Source: Pelagomonas calceolata
Taxonomy: Eukaryota
Assembly (NCBI GenBank): GCA_918797485.1
Contig: CAKKNE010000003.1
Location: forward strand, 1,488,001-1,552,000
Direction: 5' to 3'
Length of the DNA stretch: 64,000 bases
Shown: in pieces, positions 8,814 to 60,131 of the stretch
Layout: every line of letters starts with the position of its first letter
Numbering within the stretch: the first letter of the stretch is position 1
The notes under the pieces: generated by a model
The model's input: the letters and a program-made list of their open reading frames with translations, nothing else
Database searches by the model: none
Told to the model about the DNA's origin: nothing
Program-made: the position numbers and the translations under genes

Positions 8814-8837
8814 GCTAGTGTCTTACAGGACGCTAGC
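8814..8837. promoter_or_regulatory. CTAG-bounded intergenic motif copy (GCTAGTGTCTTACAGGACGCTAGC)
   Basis: Seen directly; ~140 bp upstream of the GPR107-like ATG. Regulatory function is inference. Confidence 0.55.
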
Positions 8838-9042
8838 ATTTTGCTGCTGCGAAGCGATCGGGCGCGGTAGTACGTCCATCGCGAAGAGCCAAGACCGCGG
8901 AGAGCAATAAACCCCCTGCAAGCGGGGGGACCCCGCGCCGCCAAGAGCCTGAGCCCGAGCCTGACGGGCTCGGACCCGTTGCCTAGATGCTACCTCGTAC
9001 AGTCTCACATATACGCGACGGCGGAATCGGGGGAGACGGCTC

Positions 9043-10074
9043 CTAGAGGCGACTCCTAGCACACCGCCGCCGCACCAGGTCCGCGAATTCGCCCGCGAGC
9101 CACGACGCGGTCGGCCGTTTTTCCCAGCGCGGGTCCAGCATCGCCTCCAGCAACTCGCCCTCGCGCGCCGGCTCGGCGCGGAGCCGGCACCGCGCCGCCT
9201 CGGCCGGGAGCGCCGCCGCGGCGAGCGTGGCGCCGACGCGGCGCCGCCTGAGCCGCTGCGCGAGCTCGCGGAAACGAGCTGCGAGACGATCCGGTCGCTC
9301 CTCGACGCCATGGCGGCGCGCGGTGTCGGGCCCGTGCGCGCACCGCAGGAGCAGGAAGACGAGCCCCGCGCCCCAGACGTCGCTCGCGGGCGTGAGGGCC
9401 ACGCGCCCCGCCTCCGGCGCCGCCGCCAGCGCGCCCGCGGTCGCCAGGCACCCCCCCGTTCCCGGCCGCGCGCCGGCCAGGCAGGCCCGCCCGAAGTCCG
9501 AGACCTTCCACCGCATGGCCGGCCCCGCGCCCTTGTACAGCAGGTTGCCGGCGTGGACGTCCTGGTTTACGATGCCGACGGCGTGCGCCGCCGCCAGGCC
9601 CCGCAGCATCTGGTGCACCGCCGTCAGAGCGAAGCACGCCCGGTCGCGGCGCGGCGGCACGAACCTGAGCGGGTCGGTGCCGTTCGTGGCCAGGAGGAGC
9701 TGGACCAGCGAACCGTCCATGCGCTCGTAGGTCGCGACGCGGGTCGCACCGCCGTCGAAGCACGCCGTCGCGGTCATCACGTGCGCGCCGGACACGTTCA
9801 GCAGGTTCGGGAGGAGGTCGTTCGCGAGATGAATCGCCATGCCACCGGGGGCCCGCTTCAGGACCACGCGCCGTTGCGTCTGCGCGTCCGTGGCCGCGTC
9901 GACGGTCAGGAAGACGCCCGTCCGGGGTCCGAGGGGCGACAGCCGCGTGCGATCGACGAAGCGCGCCTCGTCGAAGGTCTCGGCGCAGAAGCGGCCGAGG
10001 CCGTCGACCAGGCTCTCGTTCCAGTAGCGCGCGCGGCACCGGGTGCTTAGGAGCAATAGGACCCATCGACTCAT
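9043..10074 (-). CDS. Atypical Ser/Thr kinase-fold protein with predicted signal peptide
   Basis: VVLK, catalytic loop IVNQDVHAGNLL, WKVSDFG, AAPE, SDVWGAG, MLDPRWEKRPTA; hydrophobic N-terminus MSRWVLLLLS. Confidence 0.75.
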   Translation of the reverse strand: MSRWVLLLLSTRCRARYWNESLVDGLGRFCAETFDEARFVDRTRLSPLGPRTGVFLTVDAATDAQTQRRVVLKRAPGGMAIHLANDLLPNLLNVSGAHVMTATACFDGGATRVATYERMDGSLVQLLLATNGTDPLRFVPPRRDRACFALTAVHQMLRGLAAAHAVGIVNQDVHAGNLLYKGAGPAMRWKVSDFGRACLAGARPGTGGCLATAGALAAAPEAGRVALTPASDVWGAGLVFLLLRCAHGPDTARRHGVEERPDRLAARFRELAQRLRRRRVGATLAAAALPAEAARCRLRAEPAREGELLEAMLDPRWEKRPTASWLAGEFADLVRRRCARSRL

Positions 10075-10197
10075 GAATTAGGGCTGCCGCCCGGTGCCAC
10101 AACCTGTTAGGTTGTACAACTTCTTCCTGTAAGCACGGCTGCCCAGCCACCGCGAATGCCTCTGCAGGCATCCTTTGCGCACGCCCGAAGCCGGATG

Positions 10198-10221
10198 CCT
10201 AGTGTGTTACAGGCCGCTAGC
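10198..10221. promoter_or_regulatory. CTAG-bounded intergenic motif copy (CCTAGTGTGTTACAGGCCGCTAGC)
   Basis: In the divergent spacer between the kinase (ATG 10074) and the CRC gene (ATG 10690). Confidence 0.55.
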
Positions 10222-10689
10222 TTTGCATAACGCGGTTTGTTTAGATTTTTTGGCCGTCGGTGGCGCGGGTGCGACTTGCAAGGTTCGACTGACGACTGGT
10301 AGTTGGCGTCGGCGTGCTACGCGGACGGGACAAGACAGCAGCGCGCACCGTACCGTCGACGCGCGCGGGTTGACTCTCGCACTGCGCGGCGAACGGAGAG
10401 GGAAGCGAGCCGTGCCTTACATGCGAGGCGACCATTCACGCTTCTCGTATCTGAATTCTCCCGCAACCTACTAGAAAATTGAAAGTGTGGCATCTCAGCC
10501 CCAAAAAACGCCATCGCACGCCCGCCCAAGAGCCCAGATCAGCCCCACGAGCGGACCGAGGCCCGTCGCCAGCGATTTGCAAGCGACCAGCCAAAAAACG
10601 CGGACGCCAGCGGCGTTTTAGTCGATTTTGGCGCCTTGGCGCGAGAGCCCAGCCCAGCCCCTAGGCGCGGCGCGCGGCGCATACAGCTC

Positions 10690-21152: not shown

Positions 21153-22057
21153 CGTGACCTGTGTTTGACGGGGGAGGGTGAGGCGGGTGCGGCGCGGCGA
21201 CGTCGTGGCGAGTGGTTTTGGGGCGGCGTTCTCGGAGGTCTCGAGTCGGATGCGGGTGTGTCAAGAGCCGGCTCGGACCGTTTCGCGGCCCCAGCGCAGC
21301 CATGCGGCGGCACCGCGATGGAACACGGGCGCCGAGCCAGCCGGACGCGCCGTGCGCCAGCCGCGACCGCAGGCAGCTGGTCAGCTGGAGCAGGCTAAAA
21401 TCGGGCTGTGCGAATGCGCAAGAGCCGCGATTTTTGTGCACAGCTCGTGTCGAGTCACAACAGAAACCACTCGCAATTCGTTGTGTTAATTGGTTGAGGT
21501 ACCGACGCGGTAGAGTGCGATTAAACCCTCCGTGAACCGAGCCAAATCAAATCTAGTAGCTTCTTTCTTACTAGCTAATGACATATACATTACCGAGCGA
21601 TGCCAGCAACGTGGTTGACGTGGCAAGGGCTCGCCGCGGGTCGGGCAAGCCGCCGAACGCCGTCCAACTTAGTTAAAGGCCGACCGCGCGCGGTGGGCTG
21701 CCCCTCGAAAAGCGACGAAGGAGCCGTCGCCGCCGCCACCCCTACGCGACGCCTCCGCCGCGCCCCAAACCAACCTGCGGTATCTCGCGGCCGGCTCGCC
21801 GGTGCCGCAGGCATTTTTGGGCAGAGTGGCCTGCCAATTCGGCTGGCAAAAGTACGTCCGTTGCGGGCACCCCGGCGCGCGGCTTGCAGGAAGGAGTGCC
21901 CGGGACGCACCGAGTCGGAGAGGAACAGCGCTGCCCGCCGGCGGCGTCGCTCGGCCCACCTCTGCTGCCCACTTCCGCTGCCCCGTAGTCGCTCCGGCTG
22001 CTCGCCCGCCTCCGCTCGGCCCACTGCGGCCCCGGCGTGGCTTCCTCCGGCGGAGGC

Positions 22058-24291: not shown

Positions 24292-24316
24292 CTAGAGTGT
24301 CTTACATGCCGCTAGG
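24292..24316. promoter_or_regulatory. CTAG-bounded motif copy (CTAGAGTGTCTTACATGCCGCTAGG)
   Basis: ~245 bp upstream of the ATG at 24048. Confidence 0.5.
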
Positions 24317-25691: not shown

Positions 25692-26246
25692 GGTGTCGTT
25701 GTTTCGCGTTGATGGCGTGTCTGGCGGCGGTCAAAGCACTGCTTTGTCACGTGCGCGCGCGTAGCGTGGCAGCGTTGCTGTCGGCACCACGCCTGTTATC
25801 TCGCCGTGCGCGTCGATCTGCTTAGAAACCAACGTCGGTACCGGGAGCAATGATGGTTCGGGCCACAACGGCAGTGTACGGCCTAAATTTGAGCGGTCCT
25901 CCCCGAGCTACAGCAGCGCTTTTGTACGGTGTTTGCGCCGCAAAGACACTCTAGGTTGATTTCACGAGGGGACTCTTGCCCCTCCTCGTGGCTCCAGAGA
26001 AGTAGGCGCAGAACTCTCCAACAGGAAACGCACGCTTTCCTGCTTTTACGTGCGGGTTTTGCAGCACTCGGCTTTTTTCTTCTAAAACTTGGCCGCAGGG
26101 GCTGTTCGCGGCGCATAAAACTGCTCGTCGAGAGCTGTCTGTCGACAGCACATCGCTGCGCAAAGCGTTGCGCGCCTCGCGCTACATTTTAAAGCACAGC
26201 TCTCCCAGCTGGTGCTCTCTGAGGCAGACGGACCCGCACAGATAAA

Positions 26247-35205: not shown

Positions 35206-35227
35206 GCTAGCGGCCTAAGACACTAGC
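35206..35227. promoter_or_regulatory. CTAG-bounded motif copy, reverse orientation (revcomp GCTAGTGTCTTAGGCCGCTAGC)
   Basis: ~200 bp upstream of the FKBP ATG. Confidence 0.55.
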
Positions 35228-35266
35228 AACCGATATACGCCATCGACGCGACAGGATTCATTCAGA

Positions 35267-38252: not shown

Positions 38253-38278
38253 GCTAGTGTGTCTTACACCACGCTAGC
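38253..38278. promoter_or_regulatory. CTAG-bounded motif copy (GCTAGTGTGTCTTACACCACGCTAGC)
   Basis: Divergent spacer between CDPK and LysM genes. Confidence 0.5.
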
Positions 38279-40506: not shown

Positions 40507-40977
40507 GGTAGTTGTTTGCTTGTCGCGGCGACGGCGTGCAGGTGAGCCCGAGTTGGGGAGGTGGAGAGGCTTGCTCCTATCTCTGGGCAGCGGGCAGCCG
40601 GCGCTGTGGTCCTGCGACGAGGCCGCTCTGCGCGCGACTCTCCGCAACAGCAATGCCACCGCGCGCCGCGCGAGAGGCCTATGCGATGCTGGCCTGAGAG
40701 CGCTGTTTTGTGCGGGGTCTCCGATCGACAGGCGAACGTGGCTCATTGTCTGGGGGGATCTGCCGAGGCGTGTCTGCTTCGACGGAAGTATGCCGTTACG
40801 AAGACGCGGCCCGCGACGAAGCGGATCTACGAAGCGGCGACGCGCGGTGGCAGATGCGTTGGCTCCCTCGACTTCTACGCCGCTGCACGCCATCGACGCG
40901 ACATCCTCCGCGGCGATGGCGTCTACGCCAGCTGCCATCGACGAATCGGCGACGAGTCCCAGCTGAGCAACAGACTC

Positions 40978-41838: not shown

Positions 41839-41993
41839 GATGGGGCTGCCTCCCGTCGTCTGTGATCGGCGTGGGAGCGGGACCACGGCGTGGGGCTGCT
41901 ATTGGGGGCTGCACGTTTGCGATCTGCGTCCTCTCTGTGAGTTCTACCTCGCCCTTTCGGCGTTAGCGTACAGCGCAGCGTAAAGGTCGTCTT

Positions 41994-42018
41994 GCTAGTG
42001 TGTCTACAGGCCGCTAGC
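41994..42018. promoter_or_regulatory. CTAG-bounded motif copy (GCTAGTGTGTCTACAGGCCGCTAGC)
   Basis: Centred in a divergent spacer, ~156 bp from each flanking ATG (41838 and 42176). Confidence 0.6.
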
Positions 42019-42175
42019 ATTATTTGCTCTCCGTAGTATTGGGGCTGTTTTGAAGCCCCAGTGGGCTCAGAGAAGCAGTTGACAGTGGCGCGCAGCACTC
42101 AGCTAACCACAGGTCAGCCCTGGGACCGAGCCGCGCCTCCGACACGCCCCAAATCAGTCGTAACTCTAAGGCACG

Positions 42176-43840
42176 ATGGATCACGGCGTTTGGCACCAAG
42201 CGAGAGATGCGGGCGGTCGCCTCTATTTTTTCAACGACGCCGGTGAAACGCGCTGGGATTGGCCCGGCGGCGAGGCGGCGCCGCTGGCTGTGCAGAATGC
42301 CTTCGCGGGAGCGCTGCAGCAGCCCGTCGTCCCCGGGGGCAACGCGCCCATCTCGCGAGAGTTGGCGGAGAGATGCCTCGGGGAGATGCGGCGCGACAAA
42401 GCGGAGCTCGCGCGGCTCGAGGGAGAGCTCGCGGCCGCCGCCGACCGCGACTCGCAACTGGATGCCCAATTCGCGGCAGCCGTCGCCGACCGGGCCGCGC
42501 TCGCGACCGCCGCGGCCGAGAGCCGCCGCGCAGCCGCGGACCGCGCCCTCAGCTGCGCCACCGCTGCCTTGGCCGACGCGTGGCTCGCGACGGAGGCCCG
42601 TCTGCCCGACGTCGAGGCCGCCTGGGCCCGGGCCTGGCCCGCGCCCGCGCCCGCGCCGCCCCCGGACGACGACGACCTCCGGCAGCTGCTTGACGGCGAC
42701 GCCGCCGCGCCACCGGCGCCGATGGAGACGGACGACGACGACGACCTGGCCCGCGCCCTCGCCATGTCGCGCGAGGAGGCGCCGCCGCCGCCGCCTGAAG
42801 ACGAAGACATTGACGGCGACGGCATGGCCTTCGATCCCGCGCTCCTGCAACCGGCCACCCGGTGGCCGGGTCCCACCGGCGGCGACAGCACCGACGACGA
42901 CACGCCGCCGTCGCCCGCGCCCGCGCGGCCCACGCGCGCGCCGAAACGCCCCAAGAAGCTCGAGGACGCCGCGCCGGCGCCGAAGAAGCGGGCGCGTGTG
43001 TCGACGGACGGTGCGCCGCTAGCGCGCGATCCTCCCGGCGCCACGGCCGCGGCGCCGGACAGCATCATGGCCACGGTCCAGGGCCAGCTGTCGGACACGC
43101 TTTATAGCAAGAAGCAGATATTGGAGCTCATGCCCAACGGCCAGGGCTCGCACGTGCCCGCGGTCTACGCGGCAGGGGGCGTGATCTACGCGCTTTGCTT
43201 CTCCGAGGACTCGAACCCGGGCCTGCCGACCGTCGTCGAGATCTCCTGCGGCACGCAGCGCCGGAAGCAAGTGACCCAGTTTCAGGAGCTCCAGCGTCGC
43301 CGCGGGACTGTCCCTCTGTTCGTCTGCCTCAAGACGGCGCGCGGCCGCCTCGAGCTCCTACCGAGCGGCTCGGGTAGCAAGGGGTTCCGCTTCGCCGGCA
43401 TGCGCTCGGTTGTGTCCGTGGAGACACACTCGACGCCGAAAATGGTCGGCGGCGAAGCGAGGCAGGCGACCGTGACGCTGTCGGCGCCGACCGCGGGAGA
43501 AACATGCCCGCTGCAGGTCGCTGGCATCCCTCGAGCCATCCAGGTCGCGGGAGCGCCGGCGCCGGCGCCGGCTCCGCCCGCTGCGCCGCCCGTGACGCCG
43601 GCTCCGGCTCCTCCGCCGCGACCCGCGGCGCCAGTGACACCGGCCCAGCCGCGCATGGTGACCTCGGGGGCGGTGTGGAGTGAGGGTGCGGCGTCCGGCG
43701 TGATGGTCCGGTGCCCAGAAGGCGTCGGCGTCGGGCAGACTCTGATGTTCGAACACTCCGAGTCGGGCAGAAAATTCAAGGTCGTCGTGCCCGCCGGGGT
43801 CGCACCGGGGCAGGAGTTCCGCGTGCCCCTGCCCTCGTAA
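42176..43840 (+). CDS. WW-domain, coiled-coil and UIM protein with C-terminal VPxG..PG module
   Basis: WHQARDAGGRLYFFNDAGETRWDWP; DDDDLARALAMSREE; VVPAGVAPGQEFRV. Confidence 0.7.
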   Translation: MDHGVWHQARDAGGRLYFFNDAGETRWDWPGGEAAPLAVQNAFAGALQQPVVPGGNAPISRELAERCLGEMRRDKAELARLEGELAAAADRDSQLDAQFAAAVADRAALATAAAESRRAAADRALSCATAALADAWLATEARLPDVEAAWARAWPAPAPAPPPDDDDLRQLLDGDAAAPPAPMETDDDDDLARALAMSREEAPPPPPEDEDIDGDGMAFDPALLQPATRWPGPTGGDSTDDDTPPSPAPARPTRAPKRPKKLEDAAPAPKKRARVSTDGAPLARDPPGATAAAPDSIMATVQGQLSDTLYSKKQILELMPNGQGSHVPAVYAAGGVIYALCFSEDSNPGLPTVVEISCGTQRRKQVTQFQELQRRRGTVPLFVCLKTARGRLELLPSGSGSKGFRFAGMRSVVSVETHSTPKMVGGEARQATVTLSAPTAGETCPLQVAGIPRAIQVAGAPAPAPAPPAAPPVTPAPAPPPRPAAPVTPAQPRMVTSGAVWSEGAASGVMVRCPEGVGVGQTLMFEHSESGRKFKVVVPAGVAPGQEFRVPLPS

Positions 43841-43863
43841 GTAGACTGATTGTGCTAATAGAG

Positions 43864-44829
43864 TTACCTCGCGTCGCGCGTCCCCGGCAGAGCACCCACT
43901 GGATTCCCACCCACAAAGCGCGCCAGAGCCATCGCCGTGGGCAGGGGCTGCTCGAGGTGCGGGACGTGGCCGCACGCGTCGACGAAGCGGATGTCCGCGT
44001 CGGGCAGGGCGGACGCGAACTGGGGCAAAGCATCCGCGGGAGGCAAGATTTCATCAGAATCACCCCAGAGGATGAGCGTGTCCTCGTCGCGCAGCGCGGG
44101 CGCCACGATATCGGACACGGAGTAGCCGCCCCCCAGGAGCCAGGCCACGGCGTCGTCCTCCCACGCGTCGCGCTCGCAATGCAAGAGCCCGACGCGGATC
44201 GCGTCGAAGTTGCCCAACCTTTTGTCCTTGTACGCGATGACGTTCGCGAGGGCGCGCAGCGGCCAGCTTCGTAACACGCGGACGCCCAGGCGCGCGCCCC
44301 ACTCCGGCACCGGCGGCGCCCCGTCGATGAAGCACTGGGGCCCGATCAACGCTACTTTTTCGACGTTCTCCACCTGACCGTTCCGCAGCGCGTCGACGAC
44401 GACCGCGGCGCCCAGCGACGCGCCCGCGAGGACGCAGGGGCCCCGGACGACGTCTCTGACGAACTCCTCTATTTGTTTCCGCTTCGCTTCTATAGAAACG
44501 CCTTGCTTTGGTGTTGTTAAGCCCCATCCGACCAAATCGAGGGCGTAGGCCTCGACACCCTGTGCCTCGAGCTGAGGGAGCAATCTACGGTACTCGAATA
44601 ATGAAGAGTCGAAGCCGTGCAGGAGGACCAACGCCGGCGCGGCGCTCTTCGCATTCGTGCGCACGAACGTCGTCCGGGACGAGGGCAGGTCCACTTCCTC
44701 ATATTTCGCGGCGAGGTCGAGGGCCGCCGGCTCCTCGACCTCCGCGAGCTTCTCTCTTATTACGGACGTCACGGCGTTGGGCGCCAGGGCGTGGCTTGTT
44801 GCGGCGAGCAGCGCTAGTTTTGCAATCAT
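43864..44829 (-). CDS. Alpha/beta hydrolase, probably plastid-targeted
   Basis: VLLHGFDSSLFEYRRL, DLVGWG, GASLG nucleophile elbow, ILWGDSDEIL, CGHVPHLEQP. Confidence 0.9.
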   Translation of the reverse strand: MIAKLALLAATSHALAPNAVTSVIREKLAEVEEPAALDLAAKYEEVDLPSSRTTFVRTNAKSAAPALVLLHGFDSSLFEYRRLLPQLEAQGVEAYALDLVGWGLTTPKQGVSIEAKRKQIEEFVRDVVRGPCVLAGASLGAAVVVDALRNGQVENVEKVALIGPQCFIDGAPPVPEWGARLGVRVLRSWPLRALANVIAYKDKRLGNFDAIRVGLLHCERDAWEDDAVAWLLGGGYSVSDIVAPALRDEDTLILWGDSDEILPPADALPQFASALPDADIRFVDACGHVPHLEQPLPTAMALARFVGGNPVGALPGTRDAR

Positions 44830-45182
44830 TTTGCTGCTAGCTTGCAAAATGCAAAGCTGTGAGTGGATATTGCAAAAACTGCTGCAATAAAGCGCTTGCA
44901 ATGCAGTGGTTTGCAAGCGACGACCGCGATAGCGTCAGAGACGACCAGTTTACTGCAAGCGCAGTCGTATTGGCCGCAAGCTCGCCTGCATCCAATTGTG
45001 AGATGAATGACAAGCCATCTCCCAAAGGCGGGTTTTCGCGACAGGTGCCAGGGACACAGTGGGCTGCCACGATGTGCTCAACTGCGCGCTGGCGGCATAG
45101 GTGGCGGAACCCACTAGAGTTGCTCGAAGCCCCGACCAGTGTCCATCAGTTTGGTCTTTGGCAGCCCAAAAACGCCGCAACG

Positions 45183-46169
45183 ATGCTGCCCCAGCGGCAG
45201 AGCGGCACGCCGACGGCGCTGCAACGCGCCGTACGCGCGCGCGAAGCCGCGAAACCCAAGAAGCAGCGACGCAAATGGAACATACAGCCGGTGCGGCTTG
45301 CTGCTGCGGACCGGGTGGCCTACCCGCCGGGCCAGCGGCCGGCGCCGCGCCCGCGCACGCCGGCCGCGCCGAGCGAGAAGACGTCGGTGCCGCGCGCGCG
45401 CACGCCGGCGGTCGACGCACCCAAATCGTCGCGCACGCCCCGCGTGACACCCCCCAAAACAGCAATCACGAGCCACGCGGCGCTCGCGGCCAAGCGCGCG
45501 CGCCACCTCGCCGCGGGCGACGCCACGCCGCGGCATCAGCCCGCGCCGGCGCTGGCGTCGGTGCCGGCGCCGAAGGCACTGATACCCGAGGAGCAGCCCG
45601 TCCGCGGCGCCGCCCAGGCGCGCGCCGTGACGCCCGACGAGGGCTCTCATCAGAGGCGGGACCTGCGGGCCGTCGTCTACGACGCCGAGAAAAAAACACT
45701 GCTGTGGCAGGCGCCGGAAGGTGTACAACCGGTGCCGTACGGGGAGGCACTCACTATGGCGCGGCCGCCGCGCTACGTGCGCGCATTCTACGACGTCGCC
45801 TCGGGTGAGACCTGCTGGACGGCCGACGAGCGCGTTCCGGCGGCCGCGCCCGACGCGGCCGACGCCTCGGAGGACGCCTCGGAGGACGCCGCGTCCGACG
45901 CCTGCATCGACGCGCGCGGCACGGCGGCGTCGCCCGTCGCGTCGCCCGCGGCGTCTTCGGAGTATTCCGAGGCCTTCGAGACGGACGACGAGAGCTTCGC
46001 GGTCGACGATGCGGAGGTCGGCGCGTCCTGCTTCTTCGACGACGTGTGCAACCACGGCGTCGCGGAGAAGCGACGACACCTGGCCCTCGACGGCGGCATG
46101 GAGGAGATGCGGCGGCGCATCGAGCGCATGGAGGTGTCGCTCCGCGAGGGGGGCATCGTACCTGCGTAA
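45183..46169 (+). CDS. Hypothetical protein
   Basis: ORF divergent from the hydrolase; two short beta-motifs (VYDAEKKTLLW, FYDVASGETCW); acidic tail. Confidence 0.5.
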   Translation: MLPQRQSGTPTALQRAVRAREAAKPKKQRRKWNIQPVRLAAADRVAYPPGQRPAPRPRTPAAPSEKTSVPRARTPAVDAPKSSRTPRVTPPKTAITSHAALAAKRARHLAAGDATPRHQPAPALASVPAPKALIPEEQPVRGAAQARAVTPDEGSHQRRDLRAVVYDAEKKTLLWQAPEGVQPVPYGEALTMARPPRYVRAFYDVASGETCWTADERVPAAAPDAADASEDASEDAASDACIDARGTAASPVASPAASSEYSEAFETDDESFAVDDAEVGASCFFDDVCNHGVAEKRRHLALDGGMEEMRRRIERMEVSLREGGIVPA

Positions 46170-46372
46170 TGATTCCAACGAGTGACTCCCGAGGACGACG
46201 GACACGATTCACGCGAAACCCCGGCGCTGCTGCGGCGATGGCGTGCCGGTGAACTCGCGTCGACTCGGACCACTTGCACGCCATCGAAGCGACGACGGCG
46301 TCGCCGTCGAACGCCATCGACGCGTAGCGATGGCGTGGAGTCGTGGACGTGACGATTCGAGTAGCGGTCATA

Positions 46373-47479
46373 CTATGAGGACCTTACGTCGATCTTCCCC
46401 TGCGTCTCGATCCCGTGGTCCCCCGGCGTCGCGTTCGGGTTCAGCGCGGCACCCAAATAAGAAAACGACACGACGCCCTTCGCGCCCTTCCGGTACACGT
46501 CGAAGACCTTGCGGAACTCGTCCGTGTTCCAGATCTTGAACTTCTTGGGCTTCGAGCCGTCGCCCTTATCGAACACTAGGATCACTTTCACCTTCTCCGC
46601 CGGCTTCGCCTGCGCCTTCGGCGAGGCGCGCTTCTTCTTGGCTGGCGCCGCTGCTGGACTCTTGGCCGGCGACGGCTGCGCGGGGCCCTCGCCCGGCCGC
46701 GGCCGCTTCCTTCCCCTGGGAGGAGCCTTGCAGTCGATCATGTCCTCGGACTCCATGTCCAACGCTCGAGGTTTGCTACCGGCGCCGACGACCTCCCCAT
46801 CGAACACAAACTTGCAATCATAAGCGTTGACGCCTCGATCACACGCATACCGTTCGAACAACTCGGCGAAGGGCTCGTCCTCCCGGATCTCGTAATCTAG
46901 GGGCTTGCCGTCGCCCTCGGTCCGGATCTTGATCTTGAGCAAAGCGCCGCCGTACTTCGGGGCTGCCGGCTTCGGCGGCGCCTCCACCTGAACGCGCCGC
47001 CGTCTCGTCGGTTGCGCCACGACGGGCTCGTCGTCGCTCTCGGCCAGATTCTCGACCTTGCGCTCGGCTTGTCTCATCGCTTCCCGCGCAGCTCTCGACT
47101 CCCTCAACATCCGCAGCCGCCGCTTCGTGTCCTCGTCGGCGTCGTCGTCGTCATCAGACGATTCTTGCTTCTTGCGAGCCTTCTTTTTTTTGGGCGGAGA
47201 TGGCTTTGTAGGCTCATCATCATCCACGTTAATGGCGGGCGCAAAGGCCTCGACGTCGTCATCGATCTCTATCGTTTCGTGTTGCTTTTTGCGCGTCGGT
47301 GCCTTGGTCTTGGCGGGGCTCTTCTTCGGCTTCTTGCCCTTTTTTTCCTTGGCCTCGGCCTCGGCCCGCCGCTGGCGCTCCAATTCGCGCTCGAACTCGC
47401 CGTCGCTGACGTCGTCGTCGCTTGAGCTCGAGCTTTCTCCGCCGCCGAAGGCCTTGGCCTTGTACTGGAAGACGGACAT
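46373..47479 (-). CDS. Rad60/Esc2/NIP45-like protein with tandem SUMO-like domains
   Basis: Acidic/basic N-terminus; KIKIRT..YEIREDEPFAELFERY..KFVFDGE..LDMESEDMID; second Ubl FSYLGAALNPNATPGDHGIETQGKIDV lacking a C-terminal diGly. Confidence 0.8.
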   Translation of the reverse strand: MSVFQYKAKAFGGGESSSSSDDDVSDGEFERELERQRRAEAEAKEKKGKKPKKSPAKTKAPTRKKQHETIEIDDDVEAFAPAINVDDDEPTKPSPPKKKKARKKQESSDDDDDADEDTKRRLRMLRESRAAREAMRQAERKVENLAESDDEPVVAQPTRRRRVQVEAPPKPAAPKYGGALLKIKIRTEGDGKPLDYEIREDEPFAELFERYACDRGVNAYDCKFVFDGEVVGAGSKPRALDMESEDMIDCKAPPRGRKRPRPGEGPAQPSPAKSPAAAPAKKKRASPKAQAKPAEKVKVILVFDKGDGSKPKKFKIWNTDEFRKVFDVYRKGAKGVVSFSYLGAALNPNATPGDHGIETQGKIDVRSS

Positions 47480-47654
47480 CTCTGGCCGCGCGTTGCCAAC
47501 AGTGGCTGATATGCTGTTTTGGCTTTTGCAGGGCTGCTAGGCCCGAACCACTCGCACAGCGCTGCTTGGGTGGTTATGTACGAGTGCTGGCGCTGCTTTC
47601 TGGCGTCGCGCGCGCCCAGCTACGCTAAAAGACGCTAAAAATAATCGCAGCCGC

Positions 47655-47677
47655 CTAACGCTCTGTAACATACTAGC
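47655..47677. promoter_or_regulatory. CTAG-bounded motif copy, reverse and degenerate (revcomp GCTAGTATGTTACAGAGCGTTAG)
   Basis: Divergent spacer between the Rad60-like gene and MAD2. Confidence 0.45.
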
Positions 47678-47915
47678 TCCGCAGCCAGAGGCGCCAGTTC
47701 ACGTCTCGTGTGCGCTAGATAGCGCGCTTACCTACCGACCGCGGCTCTCGGAGGAGCCAGCCGATCCATCGCGAGCGGACGGCCGCGGCAACCGGCGCCC
47801 TCGAGACGCAGCGGCACCGCTACAAGCCGAACAACGAGCAGCGCGCAAAAGCCGCCGGCGCAGCGCGTAGACCTACCGCGGCACGCCGTCGACGCGCCGA
47901 CGCGCCGACGACACC

Positions 47916-48729
47916 ATGGCCGACGGCGCCACGTCCACCATTTCGCTGAGAGGCAGCGTCGACCTCGTCCAGGAGTTCTTCGAGTACGCGATTAACTCGA
48001 TCCTGTACCAGCGCGGCATCTACCCGCCCGAGGAGTTTCGGAGGGTGGCAAAGTACGGGCTGAGCATGATGGTCGCTAGTGATGACGGCCTCCAGACCTA
48101 CCTGAAGAAGATTTTGGCCCAACTCAAGACGTGGCTTGAGGAGGGCGACGTCCAGCGATTAGTCGTCGTCGTGACCTGTGTGGAAATCAACCATGTCGGG
48201 TGCACCCGACAATTCTTCACTAAGTAATTTCTCGGCGATGACGCGGCCGACCTGGCTCGGTCGAGCGGCGAGGAACCGGCATCGCCACGCCGTCGAGCAG
48301 GTGTCGCGTCGATGGCGTGGAGGGCGACGCGACGATTCAGGACGAACGCGCCGTAAAATTTTGATTTCCACACAGGTCGTGACGGGCGTCGAGACCAACG
48401 AAACGCTAGAACGGTGGACCTTCGCCGTGAACGCCTGCGACACGGAGAACGCCGCGCCATCAACCGCGGGAGACATCAAGGCCATTACCAAACAGATCCA
48501 GGCCATCATCCGCCAGATTACCGCAAGCGTGACGTTCCTGCCTTTACTAGACGAGGCCTGCGCCTTCGATCTGCTCGTGTACACGCGGAAGACGGCGGCC
48601 GTGCCGGGCGCGTGGGAGGACTCGGACCCGAAGTACATCGCCGACTCGCAAGAAGTGAAATTGCGGTCGTTCACGACGTCCGTGCACTCCGTCGAGGCGG
48701 CGGTGGCGTACAAGGACCACGACGCCTGA
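47916..48729 (+). CDS. MAD2: Mitotic spindle checkpoint protein MAD2 (HORMA); exons 47916-48167 and 48376-48729, 201 aa
   Basis: ISLRGSVDLVQEFFEYAINSILYQRGIYPPEEF..KYGL; LERWTF; IQAIIRQITASVTFLPLL; VKLRSFTTSVH. Confidence 0.97.
48176..48375. mobile_element. Introner element copy (200 bp); TSD GTCGTGAC; intron 48168-48375
   Basis: Intact TIRs; identical 8-mers at 48168-48175 and 48376-48383. Confidence 0.95.
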
Positions 48730-54247: not shown

Positions 54248-55306
54248 TCAGAGGTCGGCCCAGGGCTCCAGCAGCGCGGCGATGCCGTCGAGCTCGTCGT
54301 CATTAATGTCGAGCGACGGCGCTTGCGTCGAGCAGACGGGGAAGGCGCCCGCGAAGGATGAGTTGGGGTTCGCGAGGGCGTCCCGCAGCCGCTGCTTGAG
54401 CACGCCCTTGAGGCCCTCCGTCGACAGGCCCCGAGACGCGAGCTGCGCTCGTAACTCGTGGACTTTCAACGCAGGAGGTCTCGAGGGCCGGTGGCGCTTC
54501 TTCTTCTCGCCCGTAGCAGGTAGGGGACGCTTCAGAGAAGGTGGAGATGGCGGTACGGAGGTCGAGAGCGGCGGCTTCGGTCTGGGGGGAGGCGCCTCGA
54601 CGCACTCCTCCGTCACGCCGGACTCGGCCGCGGCCTCGCGCCGGAAGGCGGCTCGGCAGCGCTCCAACCTTAATAATGAATCGGGCGGGCACTCCTCGAC
54701 GCGGCGAAACACCAACTTCCCGATGGACTGGCCGGCGGCGTACTTTTTACTGATGCGCATCCTTTCACATCTCAGCTCCGCAGCCAGAAAAGCTCGTAAG
54801 GTCGTCCCTTCGCGGCAGCCCGGGACGCGCCCGGCCTTGAAGAGCTCGATGAGTAACTCCGCGAGCGCGACCTCCGTAGCGGACCACTTGCCCCTCCTCA
54901 TGGGCTGGACGACCTTTCTGGGTGGTGGCGGCAAGGCTAATGTGTCGTCGGAAGTCGACCTTGAAACAGGATTGGGCACGAGGCTGTCTCCGCTCACCTT
55001 GTAGAGCTCGGGCAGCTCCACAAAAGAAGTAGAGCGGCTGACCACCGGGTGTAGGAGCGGCGCCGCGTAGTGCGTCGGCGGCGACGGGCTCGCGCTGACG
55101 ACGGGACCGGCCTCGGGGTCCGGCTCGGCGTCCGACGACTCGGGGGTCACCTTGACGTTGGTTTGGGCGAGCGCCCTCACAAAATTCGGGTGCCCCGCGG
55201 GCACCAGGGCCTCGGGCCTAGTGGTGAAGGGGCTGGTCGCGTGCCCGCCGGCCGCCGGCGCCGCCAGCCCCTCGTTGAAGGGGTTGCATAAAAGGGGGGA
55301 GGCCAT
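54248..55306 (-). CDS. SAP-domain protein with RRGKW..LRxFL..RISKK putative DNA-binding domain
   Basis: LKVHELRAQLASRGLSTEGLKGVLKQRL (SAP); MRRGKWSATEVALAELLIELF..LRCERMRISKKY. Confidence 0.75.
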   Translation of the reverse strand: MASPLLCNPFNEGLAAPAAGGHATSPFTTRPEALVPAGHPNFVRALAQTNVKVTPESSDAEPDPEAGPVVSASPSPPTHYAAPLLHPVVSRSTSFVELPELYKVSGDSLVPNPVSRSTSDDTLALPPPPRKVVQPMRRGKWSATEVALAELLIELFKAGRVPGCREGTTLRAFLAAELRCERMRISKKYAAGQSIGKLVFRRVEECPPDSLLRLERCRAAFRREAAAESGVTEECVEAPPPRPKPPLSTSVPPSPPSLKRPLPATGEKKKRHRPSRPPALKVHELRAQLASRGLSTEGLKGVLKQRLRDALANPNSSFAGAFPVCSTQAPSLDINDDELDGIAALLEPWADL

Positions 55307-55462
55307 CGCCGCGGGCCGCCCTGCCTGTCTATCCGTTTTTGTAAAACCGGTGTGGACCCACCGGTGGCGCTGCCCCGCCCGGCGGCGGGCTGCCTGCCTC
55401 CTGCTGCGCGCTGGCAATGGCAATCGCTGTGCTCCCAACCGGGGCTGCCTAGCAGAGTGGCT

Positions 55463-55472
55463 GCTAGTGTCT
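55463..55472. promoter_or_regulatory. Half copy of the CTAG motif (GCTAGTGTCT)
   Basis: ~157 bp upstream of the SAP gene ATG. Confidence 0.35.
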
Positions 55473-55530
55473 GGAAAAAATCTCCGGAACCCTGGGAACC
55501 CTGGGAACATAGGTATAAAAACAAACCTTT

Positions 55531-56148
55531 TTAGAGCGCTTGGAGAGGGCTACTTTTCGCGTCCTCCGCGTTCTCCCGCACGAAGGGCGCCACGGACTTG
55601 AAATGAGGGTGCTTCGAGTCTTTCAGTAATTGGAAGACCACCGCCTCCGAGGTAGACAACACGGCGCCCGCGCCCGCCAACCTCTTCAAAGCAACGGATC
55701 GGTCGAACGGCCGTTGGGACGACACGGCGTCGCACGCAATGTGGACATGTAATCCTTGATCTAACAAATCCAACGTCGTCTGCAGCACACAGACGTGCGT
55801 CTCCAACCCACATAAAACGCAGGACTCAATACCCATCGAAGACAGATGAGACATGACCTCCGGCGTCGCCATCGAGAACATGGTCTTCTCGAACGTTCGA
55901 TTTTTTTCCTTCTGCTGGATTAATGTAGAAAGTTCAGGCACGGTCTGTTTGAATGCTTTCGGATATTGTTCAGTGCACACGACCGGCAGATCTAACGCGT
56001 TCGCGACCTTCACTAAATAAGACGAACACTTCACGAGCTCCTGGAACCCAAAGATGATCTCCGTGAAGCGCTGCTGGACGTCGCAGACGAGCACGCAGGT
56101 CGTGGCGGGGTTCAGCTTCTGCACACTGGCTTTGAGCATGGTGGCCAT
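55531..56148 (-). CDS. Isochorismatase-domain protein (ISOC1/2-like)
   Basis: VCDVQQRF, TEQYPKAF, EKTMFSM, CGLETHVCVLQTTLDLL, DAVSS. Confidence 0.93.
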   Translation of the reverse strand: MATMLKASVQKLNPATTCVLVCDVQQRFTEIIFGFQELVKCSSYLVKVANALDLPVVCTEQYPKAFKQTVPELSTLIQQKEKNRTFEKTMFSMATPEVMSHLSSMGIESCVLCGLETHVCVLQTTLDLLDQGLHVHIACDAVSSQRPFDRSVALKRLAGAGAVLSTSEAVVFQLLKDSKHPHFKSVAPFVRENAEDAKSSPLQAL

Positions 56149-56285
56149 GGTTTCTCGTCTTCCGATCGCTGTGGTCTTTTGAGAATGCTTCGTGGCGAGC
56201 GCTGTGGTCTTTTTTGGCGTATTTTTGCGTCCCAGCGCTCTGCTATGGCCTTCGTAGGGCTGGTTTTTGGCTCGAGGGGCTGGTT

Positions 56286-56308
56286 GCTAGTATGTGACCG
56301 CCGCTAGC
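56286..56308. promoter_or_regulatory. CTAG-bounded motif copy (GCTAGTATGTGACCGCCGCTAGC)
   Basis: Divergent spacer between ISOC and DeSI genes. Confidence 0.5.
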
Positions 56309-56564
56309 TGCGGCTGATTATGGGAATCGGTGCCAGCGCTGTGCGAAGAGCGTAAACGTTGGCGTTGGCAGCTCTCTGGATCTCTGAGAACCCACCGTAA
56401 CGCACTCGCATCCACGCGGAGCCCTGGGGACGGCTGCCAGAGGCACAGTGGCTGCAGCCTGTTCAGACGCCCGACGCCGACGGCGCGCAAGCTATACAGA
56501 TTACACAGGGGCGGAGGCGACAGCAGATCTGAGGCCCAGCAACTCCAGCTGAAAGACAAGAGTC

Positions 56565-57671
56565 ATGTCGTACCAGGTCCAGGTACCGAACTACGACACG
56601 ACGACCGGCGCGCCGCTGCCGGCGGGCTGGGTCCGCTGGGTCGATCCAGAGAGCGACGAGTTCTACTATCACAACGAGACGACGGGCGAGACGACCTGGG
56701 ACGACCCCACGCGCTGGAAGGTGGGCCTGCTCTTCGATCGACTCAGAGGCGAACCACCGAAGGATGCACCTCTGTATAGGCCGCGGACGATCGAGTGCGC
56801 CTTCGCGGAGTACTCTTCTGCTGATACTGATGAAAGCGACGGCGACGCGCCCGTCACGCTGCGCGTCTACGACGTGAGTTTTAGGGGTGCGGGAGCGCTC
56901 AATTCATTGCTGAATGGCTCGTCTGGAGCGTTCCATACGGCCATCGAGGTGCACGGGCTAGAGTGGTCATTTGGCGCCACAGCAGACGACGACGACGACA
57001 CGAGCGGCATTTTTTGTTGCGACCCGGCGTCGGCCCAGCCGCACCGCTACCGCGAGGCCATCTCGTTGGGCCGCACGAAGAAGTCGCCCGTCGACGTGTT
57101 CAATATCCTGCTGCGGCTCGCGCCGTTCTGGCTCGGGAAGTCGTATGACGTGCTGCGGAAGAACTGCAACTCGTTCTGCATCCTGTTTTCCGGCGAGCTG
57201 GGCGCCGACGCGCCGCCGCCGTGGACGCACCGATTGGGCGACGGCGCCGCGGCTTTAGATGACCGGGTCTCGCGGCTGCTGGAGACGACAGGCTTGGGTG
57301 GTGGGGACGAGCCGCGCGCCGACGGGCCGGCGGCGGTGGTCTGGGACCATCCTCAGTGGTGTGCGCGCCACTTCGACTCGTTGGCAGAAGCGGAACGTTT
57401 GTGGGCCGCCCTGCCGCTCGCGCACGCGGCTTGTTTTTTCGTGCGGGACGCTCCCTCATTAACTATAGACGGCGCCGACGCGCCGGCCGTCGAGTGGACC
57501 CTGCACAAATCTTATGGGTTGCCCCACGCGACGGCGCGCATCCGAGACCGGTTCGCGTCCACGCGCGCGCTGCGGCGGCGCGCGCCGCCGCCCGTCCGGC
57601 CCGCGGCGAACCTACTGCGACCGCCGCGACGGCCTCTGGGAGCTAGCGAGTCGAAGGAGGTAGAATTGTAA
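56565..57671 (+). CDS. WW-domain PPPDE/DeSI (peptidase C97) deSUMOylase/deubiquitinase
   Basis: LPAGW..FYYHNETTGETTWDDP; LRVYDV, AFHTAIEVHGLEWSFG, YDVLRKNCNSF. Confidence 0.9.
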   Translation: MSYQVQVPNYDTTTGAPLPAGWVRWVDPESDEFYYHNETTGETTWDDPTRWKVGLLFDRLRGEPPKDAPLYRPRTIECAFAEYSSADTDESDGDAPVTLRVYDVSFRGAGALNSLLNGSSGAFHTAIEVHGLEWSFGATADDDDDTSGIFCCDPASAQPHRYREAISLGRTKKSPVDVFNILLRLAPFWLGKSYDVLRKNCNSFCILFSGELGADAPPPWTHRLGDGAAALDDRVSRLLETTGLGGGDEPRADGPAAVVWDHPQWCARHFDSLAEAERLWAALPLAHAACFFVRDAPSLTIDGADAPAVEWTLHKSYGLPHATARIRDRFASTRALRRRAPPPVRPAANLLRPPRRPLGASESKEVEL

Positions 57672-57769
57672 GTTCCTTGTTGTGTACCTTGTTTGCGAAG
57701 AACACTCCCGAGGGGCGACGGCGTATGAGGGTGTGCGGTCGCGCGGCGGGGAGATTGTTCAAGTTCAAG

Positions 57770-58975
57770 TTATAGAAGCTTAAAGTTGAACTTGAACGAC
57801 GTACGCCGTCGAACGGCAGGATCCTCCGGGTCCATGACGTACCCCAGCGCCTCACTGATCCCCCGCCACTTGCCCTCGCGGGCCCTCAGCTCGGCCTGCG
57901 CGAAGCGGATGTCTTTCGGGTCCATCTCCCTTGTGTACGAGTGCTCGGCCCCGAACGCGCGCCGCACGGTCCCATATGTCTCCTCCATCGTTGCCACGGC
58001 CTCGCGAATGTCGTCGAGCGTGGCGTCGGGGGCCCGGTAGAGAAAGAGCCCGTAGCTCCACCGCAGCCGGATCACGTCGATGTTGCCTTTGCCGAGGACG
58101 CGCCGCGCGACGGGAATCACCTTGCGCAGCAGCGCCTTGCCTTCGTCGAAGCGCCGTGTTCTGTACAGGCTATTCGCAAGGTAGCCTGCGGACCAAATGG
58201 TCTCTTGATGGTTCTCGCCGTGGAGCTTCAACCGTCCAGAGTACACGTCTCGTTGCAGGGGCAGGCCCTCTTCATGCCGTCCAAGAGCATTATACGAGTA
58301 CCCAACGCGCGTTTGCACCCTAAGCATGTGGTCTCCCGGCGCGCCGACGCGCTTCATCAGAGACAACTCGGCTTGTCTCGCGAGTAGCGCGTCCTCGTGG
58401 TCGCCCGCATCGAATAACACGTTCCCGAGCAGCCGGGTTGCGGACAACCGGATTTGGTCCGTCTCCGACCGCCCCAAGTACGTCTTCCAGCACGCCCACC
58501 CAAGCGCACATGCCACGATGCCGTGGTAATTTTGCTCGCACTGGCCGCACTTGTGCCACCGCTCCCACCTCTTCTCCAACGCTCTGTCGTCCAAATTGTT
58601 CTCCTCGACCTCGTCCATCAAAATCTTCGCTTGCTCCATCAGGCACGACACGTGCGCGAAGCCCGCCGTCCCGCGGCACGCGCACATGCGCACGAGGCCT
58701 TCTTTGTCGTCGCCACAGATGTAGCACGTCTGGCCCTTCGCGTCCTCCTTACACGCCTCCGCCGCGACCGTCACGGCCTCCTTAAATTTGGTATCGGCGT
58801 GATACTGTTCGGCGCCGCCTCCTTTTCTGATCTTCCTACAGAGCTTGTCGTGGCCGCCTTGCTCCCAGTGCTGTTTCTGGCAGGTCGGCGAGCAGTAGAG
58901 CGTCTTGCAGCGGCTGCATTGCTTCGCCGGGTGTGGGAGCGGGGCAGCGCAGCAGGCGCAGTTAATGAGGACCAT
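57770..58975 (-). CDS. MYND zinc finger + RINGv + kinesin-light-chain-type TPR protein
   Basis: CACC..CSRCKTLYCSPTCQKQHW..HDKLC; CYIC..CACRGTAGFAHVSC..CGQC; ARRVLG-type repeats. Confidence 0.88.
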   Translation of the reverse strand: MVLINCACCAAPLPHPAKQCSRCKTLYCSPTCQKQHWEQGGHDKLCRKIRKGGGAEQYHADTKFKEAVTVAAEACKEDAKGQTCYICGDDKEGLVRMCACRGTAGFAHVSCLMEQAKILMDEVEENNLDDRALEKRWERWHKCGQCEQNYHGIVACALGWACWKTYLGRSETDQIRLSATRLLGNVLFDAGDHEDALLARQAELSLMKRVGAPGDHMLRVQTRVGYSYNALGRHEEGLPLQRDVYSGRLKLHGENHQETIWSAGYLANSLYRTRRFDEGKALLRKVIPVARRVLGKGNIDVIRLRWSYGLFLYRAPDATLDDIREAVATMEETYGTVRRAFGAEHSYTREMDPKDIRFAQAELRAREGKWRGISEALGYVMDPEDPAVRRRTSFKFNFKLL

Positions 58976-59047
58976 CTGTCTTTATATAGGCTGCCCCAAT
59001 TCGTTATTTGTGTATCCTGGGGCGCTGGCTCGGATTCCTTCTTTCTC

Positions 59048-59070
59048 GCTAGTGTCTTTCCGCCGCTAGC
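59048..59070. promoter_or_regulatory. CTAG-bounded motif copy (GCTAGTGTCTTTCCGCCGCTAGC)
   Basis: Divergent spacer between the MYND gene and the pseudouridine synthase. Confidence 0.55.
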
Positions 59071-59251
59071 TAGCTGCTGCGCTGCTCGGGTGCACTTTGT
59101 GTATGTGTAGCTAAGAAGTAGCACAGACAATAGCTAGACACTTGTGCGAGACGCCATCGCCGCGACAACCGGTACCGACGACGTATTATTGCACACAATC
59201 CAGCATCAGCTCTGCAGGCTGTGCGGCAGCCTCGGGACGCGAGGCGGCAAA

Positions 59252-60007
59252 ATGCTGCTATACACATCGACACTGCTCGCGCTCGGCGCACGCATCCCAG
59301 TGCTGCTCTACAAAGACCGCTACGTCGCCGTGAACAAGCCGCCCGGCATCTCGACGCACCGCTCGTTCGACACTGGTAGACGAAGGGTATTAACGACGCA
59401 GCTGCAGCGCCAGTTCCGCAGGAAGGTCTACACGGTCCACCGCCTCGACCACCGGACGAGCGGCTGCATTTTGTTCGGCTTCGACGGCGAGGCAGCGGGC
59501 GAGTGCCACGGCCGGCTGCGCGACGGCGTCAAGGAGTACGTGGCTCTGCTGCGCGGCTTCGACGAGCGCGACGCCGTGGGGAGCGAAGTGGTGGTCGAGA
59601 AGCCCATCAAGGGCGATGACGGCGAGCCTCGACCCGCGAAGACGACGTTTCGCAAATTGGCGGGCCAGGAAGAGCCGCGGTGTACGCTGGTTATTGCGAC
59701 GCCGCACACGGGCCGCCCGCACCAAATAAGACGCCACGCGCAAGCGCTCTCGATGCCGATCATCGGGGACAGCGCTCATGGGGATTCAAAAGTGAACCGG
59801 TGGTGGCGACAGGAGCGCGGCCTCGACCGCCTGGCGCTGCACTGCCTGTCGATCGCGCTGCCCGACCCGGCCGAGACGATCGTCGCGCCGCTCGAGGGGT
59901 CGCTTGCCGAGGTCCTGCGCGCGGAGACGCTCTGGGCGGAGGCGCTCGAACGCGAGCCTCGCTTGGATCTGGCGCCGGTGGACGACCGGTCGGGGTCGCG
60001 GGGTTGA
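59252..60007 (+). CDS. RluA/TruC family RNA pseudouridine synthase
   Basis: VAVNKPPG, VHRLDHRTSG, KEYVAL, TGRPHQIRRH, PIIGDSAHG, RLALH. Confidence 0.92.
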   Translation: MLLYTSTLLALGARIPVLLYKDRYVAVNKPPGISTHRSFDTGRRRVLTTQLQRQFRRKVYTVHRLDHRTSGCILFGFDGEAAGECHGRLRDGVKEYVALLRGFDERDAVGSEVVVEKPIKGDDGEPRPAKTTFRKLAGQEEPRCTLVIATPHTGRPHQIRRHAQALSMPIIGDSAHGDSKVNRWWRQERGLDRLALHCLSIALPDPAETIVAPLEGSLAEVLRAETLWAEALEREPRLDLAPVDDRSGSRG

Positions 60008-60108
60008 TAGTAATGTGCTAGTTGTTGTTACTCTCAAAATACGCCATCGTGCTGTCTGTCTCGTGCTTATCAGCCGCACGCGACCCGAGTGGAGGAATAA
60101 TGGGTTTC

Positions 60109-60131
60109 GCTAGTGTCTTACCGACGCTAGC
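60109..60131. promoter_or_regulatory. CTAG-bounded motif copy (GCTAGTGTCTTACCGACGCTAGC)
   Basis: ~190 bp upstream of the TLC gene ATG. Confidence 0.55.

What the first reader, a model, noticed from the sequence alone, without database searches (positions are those of the whole stretch)
8814..60131. Unexplained ~24-bp CTAG-bounded element confined to promoter-containing spacers
Seen: a motif with consensus GCTAGTGTCTTACAGGCCGCTAGC (two CTAG palindromes 10-16 bp apart, with a TGTCTTAC core and GCCG) occurs at 8814, 10198, 20347, 24292, 35206 (rev), 38253, 41994, 47655 (rev, degenerate), 56286, 59048 and 60109, plus a half copy at 55463. Every copy is intergenic and ~70-250 bp from the nearest start codon, one copy per spacer. 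At 41994 it is centred between two divergent ATGs. I saw no full copy in coding sequence or in any tail-to-tail spacer. The flanking genes are functionally unrelated. Inference: a general, orientation-independent promoter or chromatin-organising element (general regulatory factor site, nucleosome-phasing barrier or replication origin), or the footprint of a promoter-targeting mobile element. I know of no description of it.
Basis: partly seen in the sequence, partly recalled or inferred. Interest (0 to 1): 0.85.

Follow-up and report, generated by a model that had tools for sequence, protein, structure and literature searches.

The report
Two-way promoter element in Pelagomonas
A 24-base DNA element with two mirror-image ends sits about 20-35 bases upstream of transcript starts, in either orientation, at many unrelated genes of an abundant marine alga, and is likely the binding site of a general factor that sets where transcription begins.

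Summary
All 12 listed sites are there, and the two-ended pattern occurs 10 times against 0.91 by chance. The organism is inferred to be Pelagomonas calceolata. A metagenome scan gave 122 further loci (about 4,600 estimated). None lies in predicted coding sequence. Of 43 with both neighbours called, 22 are head-head, 20 tandem (11:9 by orientation) and 1 tail-tail. Stranded RNA reads add the key fact: 5' read pile-ups lie 21-35 bp outside the element, on either side, mostly one base after a pyrimidine-purine step. No TATA box is present. The two half-sites are better kept than the middle (96% vs 77%), second copies are rare, and there is no target-site duplication or base-pair covariation. Best reading: a bipartite site for a general promoter factor, at the TATA-box position, probably spread by a short mobile repeat whose ~35-bp extension survives on 10 of 122 copies. 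Against: 8 of 19 promoter spacers lack it, and the one unselected ortholog pair shows it degenerate. Protein binding is untested. I found no description in print.

The parts
8814..8837 (+). full copy, tandem spacer, 140 bp from the ATG of the leftward gene
10198..10221 (+). full copy, divergent spacer (123/468 bp to ATGs)
20347..20366 (+). copy with 4-bp deletion, tandem spacer
24292..24316 (+). copy with 2-bp insertion, tandem spacer
25939..25956 (-). possible degenerate left half in a divergent spacer; below profile threshold, not counted
   Evidence: read from sequence
35206..35227 (-). full copy, tandem spacer, about 40 bp past the upstream gene's stop
38253..38278 (+). full copy, divergent spacer; rightward 5' pile-ups at 38306 and 38309 (27 and 30 bp gap); leftward pile-up at 38122 is 130 bp away
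41994..42018 (+). full copy centred between divergent ATGs; leftward 5' pile-up at 41968 in two runs (25 bp gap)
47655..47677 (-). degenerate copy (13.5 bits), divergent spacer; leftward RNA contigs end at 47629 and 47649
55463..55473 (+). left half only, followed by sequence resembling the extension block; leftward 5' pile-up at 55429 (33 bp gap)
56286..56308 (+). full copy between divergent transcripts: pile-up at 56264 (21 bp gap) and RNA contig start at 56333
59048..59070 (+). full copy between divergent transcripts: pile-ups at 59012 and 59017 (35 and 30 bp gap) and RNA contig start at 59095
60109..60131 (+). full copy, tandem spacer; upstream RNA contig ends at 60017, downstream contig starts at 60179; RNA depth about 1 in that bin

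Best explanation
This is a genome-wide, orientation-independent element in Pelagomonas promoters, made of two inverted half-sites (CTAGTG and CGCTAG) about 10 bp apart, that likely binds a general sequence-specific factor which would position RNA polymerase II starts about 20-35 bp outside either arm. Shown: the sequence, its abundance, its confinement to head-containing spacers, one copy per spacer, better conservation of the half-sites than the middle, and its position beside mapped 5' ends at the place where a TATA box would be. Inferred: a dimeric or two-domain protein binds the double strand, keeps a short (about 70-80 bp) stretch free of nucleosomes and recruits the initiation complex on one or both sides. 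Also inferred: the copies were spread by copying of a 65-70-bp repeat (T-rich left flank, core, ~35-bp right extension), after which the extension decayed and the half-sites were kept.
For: Position: 0 of 122 metagenome copies in predicted CDS; head-head 22, tandem 20, tail-tail 1 of 43 with both neighbours called; length-corrected p=0.003. Unselected spacers in the same loci: 5 copies in 21 head spacers, 0 in 36 tail-tail, 0 in 136.7 kb CDS. Start-site coupling: 7 of 8 read pile-ups next to an element are 21-35 bp from its edge while 5' UTRs run 37-163 nt; 5 of 6 genes within a 20-40-bp band, p=2e-4 (band chosen after seeing the data). 7 of the 9 pile-ups upstream of an ATG follow a YR step (p=0.0015; 7 of all 11 listed, p=0.009), as real starts would. 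No TATA in 12 of 12 upstream 60-mers. Constraint: with uniform weights, 25 unselected copies keep 289 of 300 half-site bases vs 193 of 250 middle bases, p=5e-12. Second copy within 150 bp in 3 of 122 loci vs 25-39 expected. Three ortholog pairs keep 22-23 of 24 bases while 40-bp flanks keep 47-83%. Copying origin: extension on 7 of 19 right-tail vs 1 of 50 right-head flanks, p=3e-4; head-to-tail units in L067 and L076.
Against: No binding protein, chromatin map or mutant was tested. 8 of 19 head spacers in the window lack a full copy and two such genes are transcribed (5' ends near 44986 and 40668-40688). At 38253 the leftward pile-up is 130 bp away. One RNA contig bridges the 41994 copy and two contigs end 6-9 bp from an element. 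The three conserved ortholog pairs were all found through the motif; the single pair not so selected (L097/L039) shows the element replaced by a degenerate two-CTAG sequence while flanks stay about 80% alike. Two of 11 listed pile-ups lie inside coding sequence, so pile-ups include noise. Sub-family variation could also lower conservation of the middle. RNA data come from at most two samples per lay.
Confidence: 0.66

Rival explanations
1. The copies are neutral relics of a tiny mobile element that inserts into the open stretch between start sites, as fission-yeast Tf1 targets promoters; position reflects targeting, not function.
For: A 24-30-bp motif is too long to arise independently thousands of times (inference). 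Shared one-sided extension on 10 of 122 loci and tandem units. Many small indels. Absent from 8 of 19 head spacers. Degenerate in the unselected ortholog pair. A related 70-bp dispersed repeat with 98.6% identity exists in the genome.
Against: No target-site duplication in 120 flank pairs. Half-sites far better kept than the middle. Second copies about ten times rarer than independent insertion predicts. No empty site seen in L039. No longer parent element or transposase beside any copy examined.
Confidence: 0.2
2. It is a boundary or roadblock site that separates closely packed transcription units; nearness to start sites is secondary.
For: In tandem spacers the upstream transcript ends before the element (60017, 55522-55534, 35271-35289); median 88-118 bp to the stop codon.
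Against: Nearly absent from tail-tail spacers (1 of 43 seeds, 0 of 36 unselected, 0 of 11 in the window) and commonest between two gene heads (22 of 43).
Confidence: 0.07
3. It acts as a hairpin in RNA or a cruciform in DNA.
For: Pseudo-palindrome; 3 of 11 copies fold with z below -3.6; invariant T opposite G could be a wobble pair.
Against: 8 of 11 copies fold no better than z=-2; 0 of 5 pairs show a compensatory change in 23 copies; the element lies outside most mapped transcripts; no credible Rfam match in 8 loci.
Confidence: 0.04
4. It marks replication origins.
For: Intergenic, orientation-independent, one per spacer.
Against: About one copy per 6 kb and tight coupling to transcript starts fit a promoter role better; no origin data were available.
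Confidence: 0.03

Closest known systems
Yeast general regulatory factors Abf1, Rap1, Reb1 (PMC3064788, passages read; Reb1 detail recalled)
   Same: One site at promoters of many unrelated genes; Abf1 affects nucleosome occupancy upstream of about 63% of ORFs; bipartite site and orientation independence (recalled).
   Different: Abf1 sites lie mostly 100-200 bp and Rap1 sites 100-600 bp upstream of the start; this element is 21-35 bp away, is longer, tolerates spacer indels and shows signs of having been copied. No factor identified.
Oomycete core promoter elements INR, FPR, DPEP (PMC3599244, passages read)
   Same: Stramenopile, TATA-less promoters, element close to the start site.
   Different: Those are biased to the sense orientation (forward:reverse 1.8-5.9), short, and each in 7-18% of promoters; this one is unbiased (11:9), upstream of the start, and in 24-58% of head spacers sampled.
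Transposon-spread binding sites and domesticated transposases, e.g. CSB-PGBD3 with MER85 (PMC3459987, search listing and abstract start only); Drosophila DRE/DREF and Helitron-spread sites (recalled)
   Same: A long site distributed by a mobile repeat and kept after the rest decays.
   Different: No parent element, transposase partner or target-site duplication found here; scale would be thousands of core promoters.
Promoter-targeting retrotransposon Tf1 of fission yeast (PMC5741268, search listing only)
   Same: Confined to polymerase II promoter spacers.
   Different: Tf1 relics are long terminal repeats of hundreds of bases with duplications (recalled); this is 24 bp with none.
Replitrons and Helitrons (PMC10288648, passages read)
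   Same: Replitron proteins are reported from Pelagophyceae; short terminal direct repeats; tandem copies.
   Different: No HUH gene or long element linked to any copy; hairpin weak and not covarying.

Membership tests
General regulatory factor site (Abf1/Rap1/Reb1 type) | Present at promoters of many unrelated genes | tested here: met
General regulatory factor site (Abf1/Rap1/Reb1 type) | Works in either orientation | tested here: met
   11:9 in tandem spacers, p=0.82; medians 157 and 180 bp to ATG on the two sides. Occurrence only, not activity.
General regulatory factor site (Abf1/Rap1/Reb1 type) | Site 100 bp or more upstream of the start | tested here: not met
   21-35 bp in 7 of 8 pile-ups vs 100-200 bp for Abf1
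General regulatory factor site (Abf1/Rap1/Reb1 type) | Bound by a factor that excludes nucleosomes | not testable with these tools
   no chromatin or binding data
Core promoter element (TATA, INR, FPR, DPEP) | Fixed short distance to the start site | tested here: met
   RNA-seq pile-ups, not CAGE; one exception at 130 bp
Core promoter element (TATA, INR, FPR, DPEP) | Sense-strand orientation bias | tested here: not met
Core promoter element (TATA, INR, FPR, DPEP) | Bound by TFIID or TFIIB | not testable with these tools
   none
MITE / small DNA transposon | Target-site duplication | tested here: not met
   120 flank pairs, no excess over shuffled pairs
MITE / small DNA transposon | Terminal inverted repeats | tested here: inconclusive
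   only 6-7-bp imperfect inverted half-sites; no outward extension
MITE / small DNA transposon | Presence/absence polymorphism | tested here: inconclusive
   DNA run X4 identical over three copies; L039/L097 shows replacement, not an empty site
Helitron / Replitron | Long element with HUH gene or consistent terminal hairpin | tested here: not met
   flank comparisons show no shared long element; folding weak in 8 of 11
Structured RNA element | Transcribed | tested here: not met
   lies between mapped transcripts at six copies; one contig bridges 41994
Structured RNA element | Covarying base pairs | tested here: not met
   0 of 5 pairs in 23 copies; Rfam none credible in 8 loci
Replication origin | Initiates replication / binds ORC | not testable with these tools
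   none

The most novel reading that the evidence does not exclude
Pelagomonas has rebuilt a large share of its core promoters from a mobile repeat: a transposon-born, two-way element stands at the TATA-box position of thousands of genes, is read by a dedicated (perhaps domesticated) protein in place of TATA recognition, and is still being installed and lost at promoters by copying.
Probability: 0.2. Interest if true: 0.9.

Novelty: new variant of a known kind. Interest (0 to 1): 0.66.

Why it matters
Pelagomonas calceolata is an abundant open-ocean alga, and I found no promoter element described for it. A single recognisable sequence at an estimated few thousand promoters (about 5,600 if the window's density holds) would explain how a gene-dense genome drives divergent genes from spacers with starts only 70-80 bp apart. 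It gives a direct handle for finding the factor, improving start-site annotation and building a compact two-way promoter. If the mobile origin holds, it would be a large case of core promoters spread by copying.

Tried and rejected
No whole genome was held and metagenome contigs could not be extended, so no genome-wide scan and no test in other pelagophytes. Viral contigs: 0 matches to the strict core and 0 to the extension; 4 matches to a looser pattern in low-GC phage contigs, read as chance. Prokaryote genomes: 3 matches, all in marine MAG contigs, two near ends of short contigs, read as contamination or chance. Strain polymorphism: the DNA run laid was identical to the window. Splice-acceptor reading of the TTACAG part rejected: the AG is missing in many copies. 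Retroposon 3'-end reading (hairpin plus microsatellite tail) considered: no duplications, no progressive shared extension. Insert-in-CTAG reading: no lone empty sites upstream of the two motif-less starts. CTAG methylation by the Aureococcus virus (PMC12700378, passages) gave no link to host promoters. Earlier findings: three look-ups returned nothing.

Full report
Observation. The pattern CTAG-N8-18-CGCTAG occurs 10 times against 0.91 in 100 shuffles. A gapped profile separates 10 copies at 25 bits or more and one at 13.5 bits from background, with 0.0 hits at 25 bits in 20 locally shuffled windows. With spacers curated by hand, 11 of 19 head-containing spacers carry exactly one copy and 0 of 11 tail-tail spacers do. 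Tail-tail spacers are only 17% of spacer length, so the window alone does not prove avoidance (p=0.12). Flanking genes are unrelated (22 proteins scanned).

Organism. No genome was held. Six window proteins are on a 5.39-Mb NCBI contig, with names withheld. Proteins beside the same element in metagenome loci are identical to, or cluster with, proteins named Pelagomonas calceolata (L023, L050; L058), and those loci share the window's intron repeat family. The species is therefore an inference. Only 3 of the 122 loci were tied to a species name.

Wider sample. A strict 21-base pattern found 122 loci in 2 of 64 parts of the metagenome collection, about 4,600 estimated in all. The 123 matches all have different flanks. 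Bases outside the pattern are also biased: T at -1 and -2 in 78% and 74%, C at +1 in 90%. I trained a codon-based gene caller on the window and applied it to each locus: 0 of 122 copies fall in predicted CDS; 43 have both neighbours called (22 head-head, 11 head-tail, 9 tail-head, 1 tail-tail), 49 have one, 30 have none. One tail-tail in 43 is below the 17% expected by length (p=0.003). Orientation is free (11:9) and median distances to the ATG are 157 bp left and 180 bp right. In spacers not used for selection (loci over 700 bp), 5 copies lie in 21 head spacers, none in 36 tail-tail spacers and none in 136.7 kb of CDS. Head-spacer occupancy is thus 24% there and 58% in the window.

Transcript starts. 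I laid stranded poly(A) reads and RNA contigs on 55100-60500 and 34900-48100. 5' pile-ups lie at 55429, 56264, 59012, 59017, 41968, 38306 and 38309, that is 33, 21, 35, 30, 25, 27 and 30 bp from the nearest element edge; one more, 38122, is 130 bp away. At 41968, 16 and 15 molecules end at the same base in two runs. RNA contigs start at 56333, 59095 and 60179, 24, 24 and 47 bp from the edge. At 56286 and 59048 the element sits between two divergent transcripts whose ends are about 70-80 bp apart. 5' UTR lengths vary from 37 to 232 nt, so starts follow the element, not the ATG (5 of 6 genes with pile-ups in a 20-40-bp band, p=2e-4; 8 of 10 with contigs, p=2e-6; band chosen after the fact). Seven of the 9 pile-ups upstream of an ATG fall one base after a YR step (p=0.0015); two further listed pile-ups are inside CDS and lack it (7 of 11, p=0.009), and 4 rows of that table were not shown. 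No TATA-like word lies within 60 bp of 12 of 12 ends. Against a strict rule: one RNA contig bridges the 41994 copy, two contigs end 6-9 bp from an element, and two genes with 5' ends near 44986 and 40668-40688 have no copy.

Anatomy. The element is two inverted half-sites, CTAGTG and CGCTAG, usually 10 bp apart. Scoring all positions equally, 25 copies not chosen by the strict pattern (about 3-4 expected by chance; L002 looks like one) keep 289 of 300 half-site bases and 193 of 250 middle bases, and most deletions fall in the middle. A second copy within 150 bp occurs in 3 of 122 loci against 25-39 expected under independent placement. It is not a conserved hairpin: 3 of 11 copies fold well, 0 of 5 pairs covary in 23 copies, and Rfam has no credible match in 8 loci. 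There is no target-site duplication in 120 flank pairs.

Conservation. Three ortholog pairs, from lineages with mostly 88-98% protein identity (one partial match 52%), keep 22-23 of 24 element bases while adjacent 40-mers keep 47-83%. These pairs were found through the motif, so they are biased. In the only pair not selected on both sides (L097 against L039) the element is replaced by a longer degenerate stretch that still has two CTAGs. The element therefore turns over. A DNA run laid on three copies was identical to the window.

Origin. Ten of 122 loci carry a ~35-bp block right of the core at 0-60 bp: 7 of 19 flanks facing a gene tail, 1 of 50 facing a head, 2 unclassified; 0 of 13 left flanks facing a tail, and one loose left-side match (L013) that I left out of the test. 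L067 holds a 64-bp unit head to tail and L076 a degenerate second core. The half copy at 55463 is followed by similar sequence and also faces a tail. This points to a 65-70-bp repeat as the source. No longer parent element emerged from flank comparisons.

Mechanism. Shown: sequence, distribution, start-site coupling, half-site constraint. Inferred: a two-fold protein binds the half-sites on double-stranded DNA, keeps a short gap free of nucleosomes and positions initiation outside either arm; in tandem spacers no stable antisense poly(A) RNA was seen from the unused side of 60109. I put this at 0.66, a neutral promoter-targeted relic at 0.2, a boundary site at 0.07, a hairpin at 0.04 and an origin at 0.03.

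Comparison. It works like a general regulatory factor site but lies far closer to the start than Abf1 or Rap1 sites (PMC3064788, passages). It sits where a core element would but lacks the sense bias of oomycete INR, FPR and DPEP (PMC3599244, passages). It fails the MITE test on duplications. It is not filed as a member of any of these.

Novelty. Nine literature searches (listings only unless stated) gave no description; the 13-base core appears in one unrelated paper (not opened). The genome paper PMC9481584 has no occurrence of 'motif' or 'promoter' in its main text (passages); in its supplements CTAG does not occur, but file 5 was unreadable and file 4 was cut. Subscription journals, theses and preprint supplements were not searchable. 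The pattern is absent from viral contigs and near chance in prokaryote genomes. Other pelagophytes were not testable. Verdict: real, genome-wide, apparently undescribed; new variant of a known kind; interest 0.66.

Noticed in passing
window 13557-13763, 13966-14051, 17781-17984, 18113-18318, 19707-19915, 48176-48377, 63498-63684, 63934-64000: Copies of a ~205-bp intron repeat (introner-like), 80-96% alike to copies in L026, L027, L069 and L005; the genome paper notes an intron peak near 210 bp.
   Followed up: no
window 61455-61526; L058 2094-2213; L059 2391-2456; L044 1880-1943; L003 2-30: A second ~70-bp dispersed spacer repeat, up to 98.6% alike between unlinked loci, with two CTAGs, a stretch resembling the extension block and a terminal palindrome; partly tandem in L058. 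May be a young relative of the element's source.
   Followed up: partly
L019 about 2080-2215 and L057 1-72: A ~130-bp repeat with 13-bp inverted ends and TTAA-like flanks that contains its own CTAGTG-N10-CACTAG site, the same geometry as the element.
   Followed up: partly
L019 about 2280-2350: Degenerate telomere-like hexamer repeats right after the element and extension, in the only tail-tail case.
   Followed up: no
PMC9481584 supplementary file 4 (about 14,640 of 16,667 gene rows held): No TATA-binding protein (PF00352, K03120) or TFIIB (K03124) row in the part held, though TAFs, TFIIE, TFIIF, TFIIH and BRF1 are there. Both may lie in the unseen part of chromosome 6.
   Followed up: partly
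window 21553-21575 and L039 3894-3911: Two similar degenerate two-CTAG sequences in divergent spacers that lack the standard element; possibly a variant class.
   Followed up: no
window 57770-58975: zf-MYND/RINGv/TPR gene from a large paralog family; many related reads and contigs map to it.
   Followed up: no
window 26247-34172: A 2,641-aa intronless ORF (VPS13-like by recall) in a lower-GC stretch, 56-65%.
   Followed up: no
window 35267-35289: Reads and contigs of the calcium-dependent kinase transcript end at 35271-35289, just before the predicted stop at 35267; unexplained.
   Followed up: no
L123 1-4000: A Spirochaeta MAG contig carries a perfect element 200 bp before an alga-like ORF; probably a chimeric assembly.
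   Followed up: no
L038 298-427: Two full copies in inverted orientation 80 bp apart, one of 3 double cases among 122 loci.
   Followed up: no
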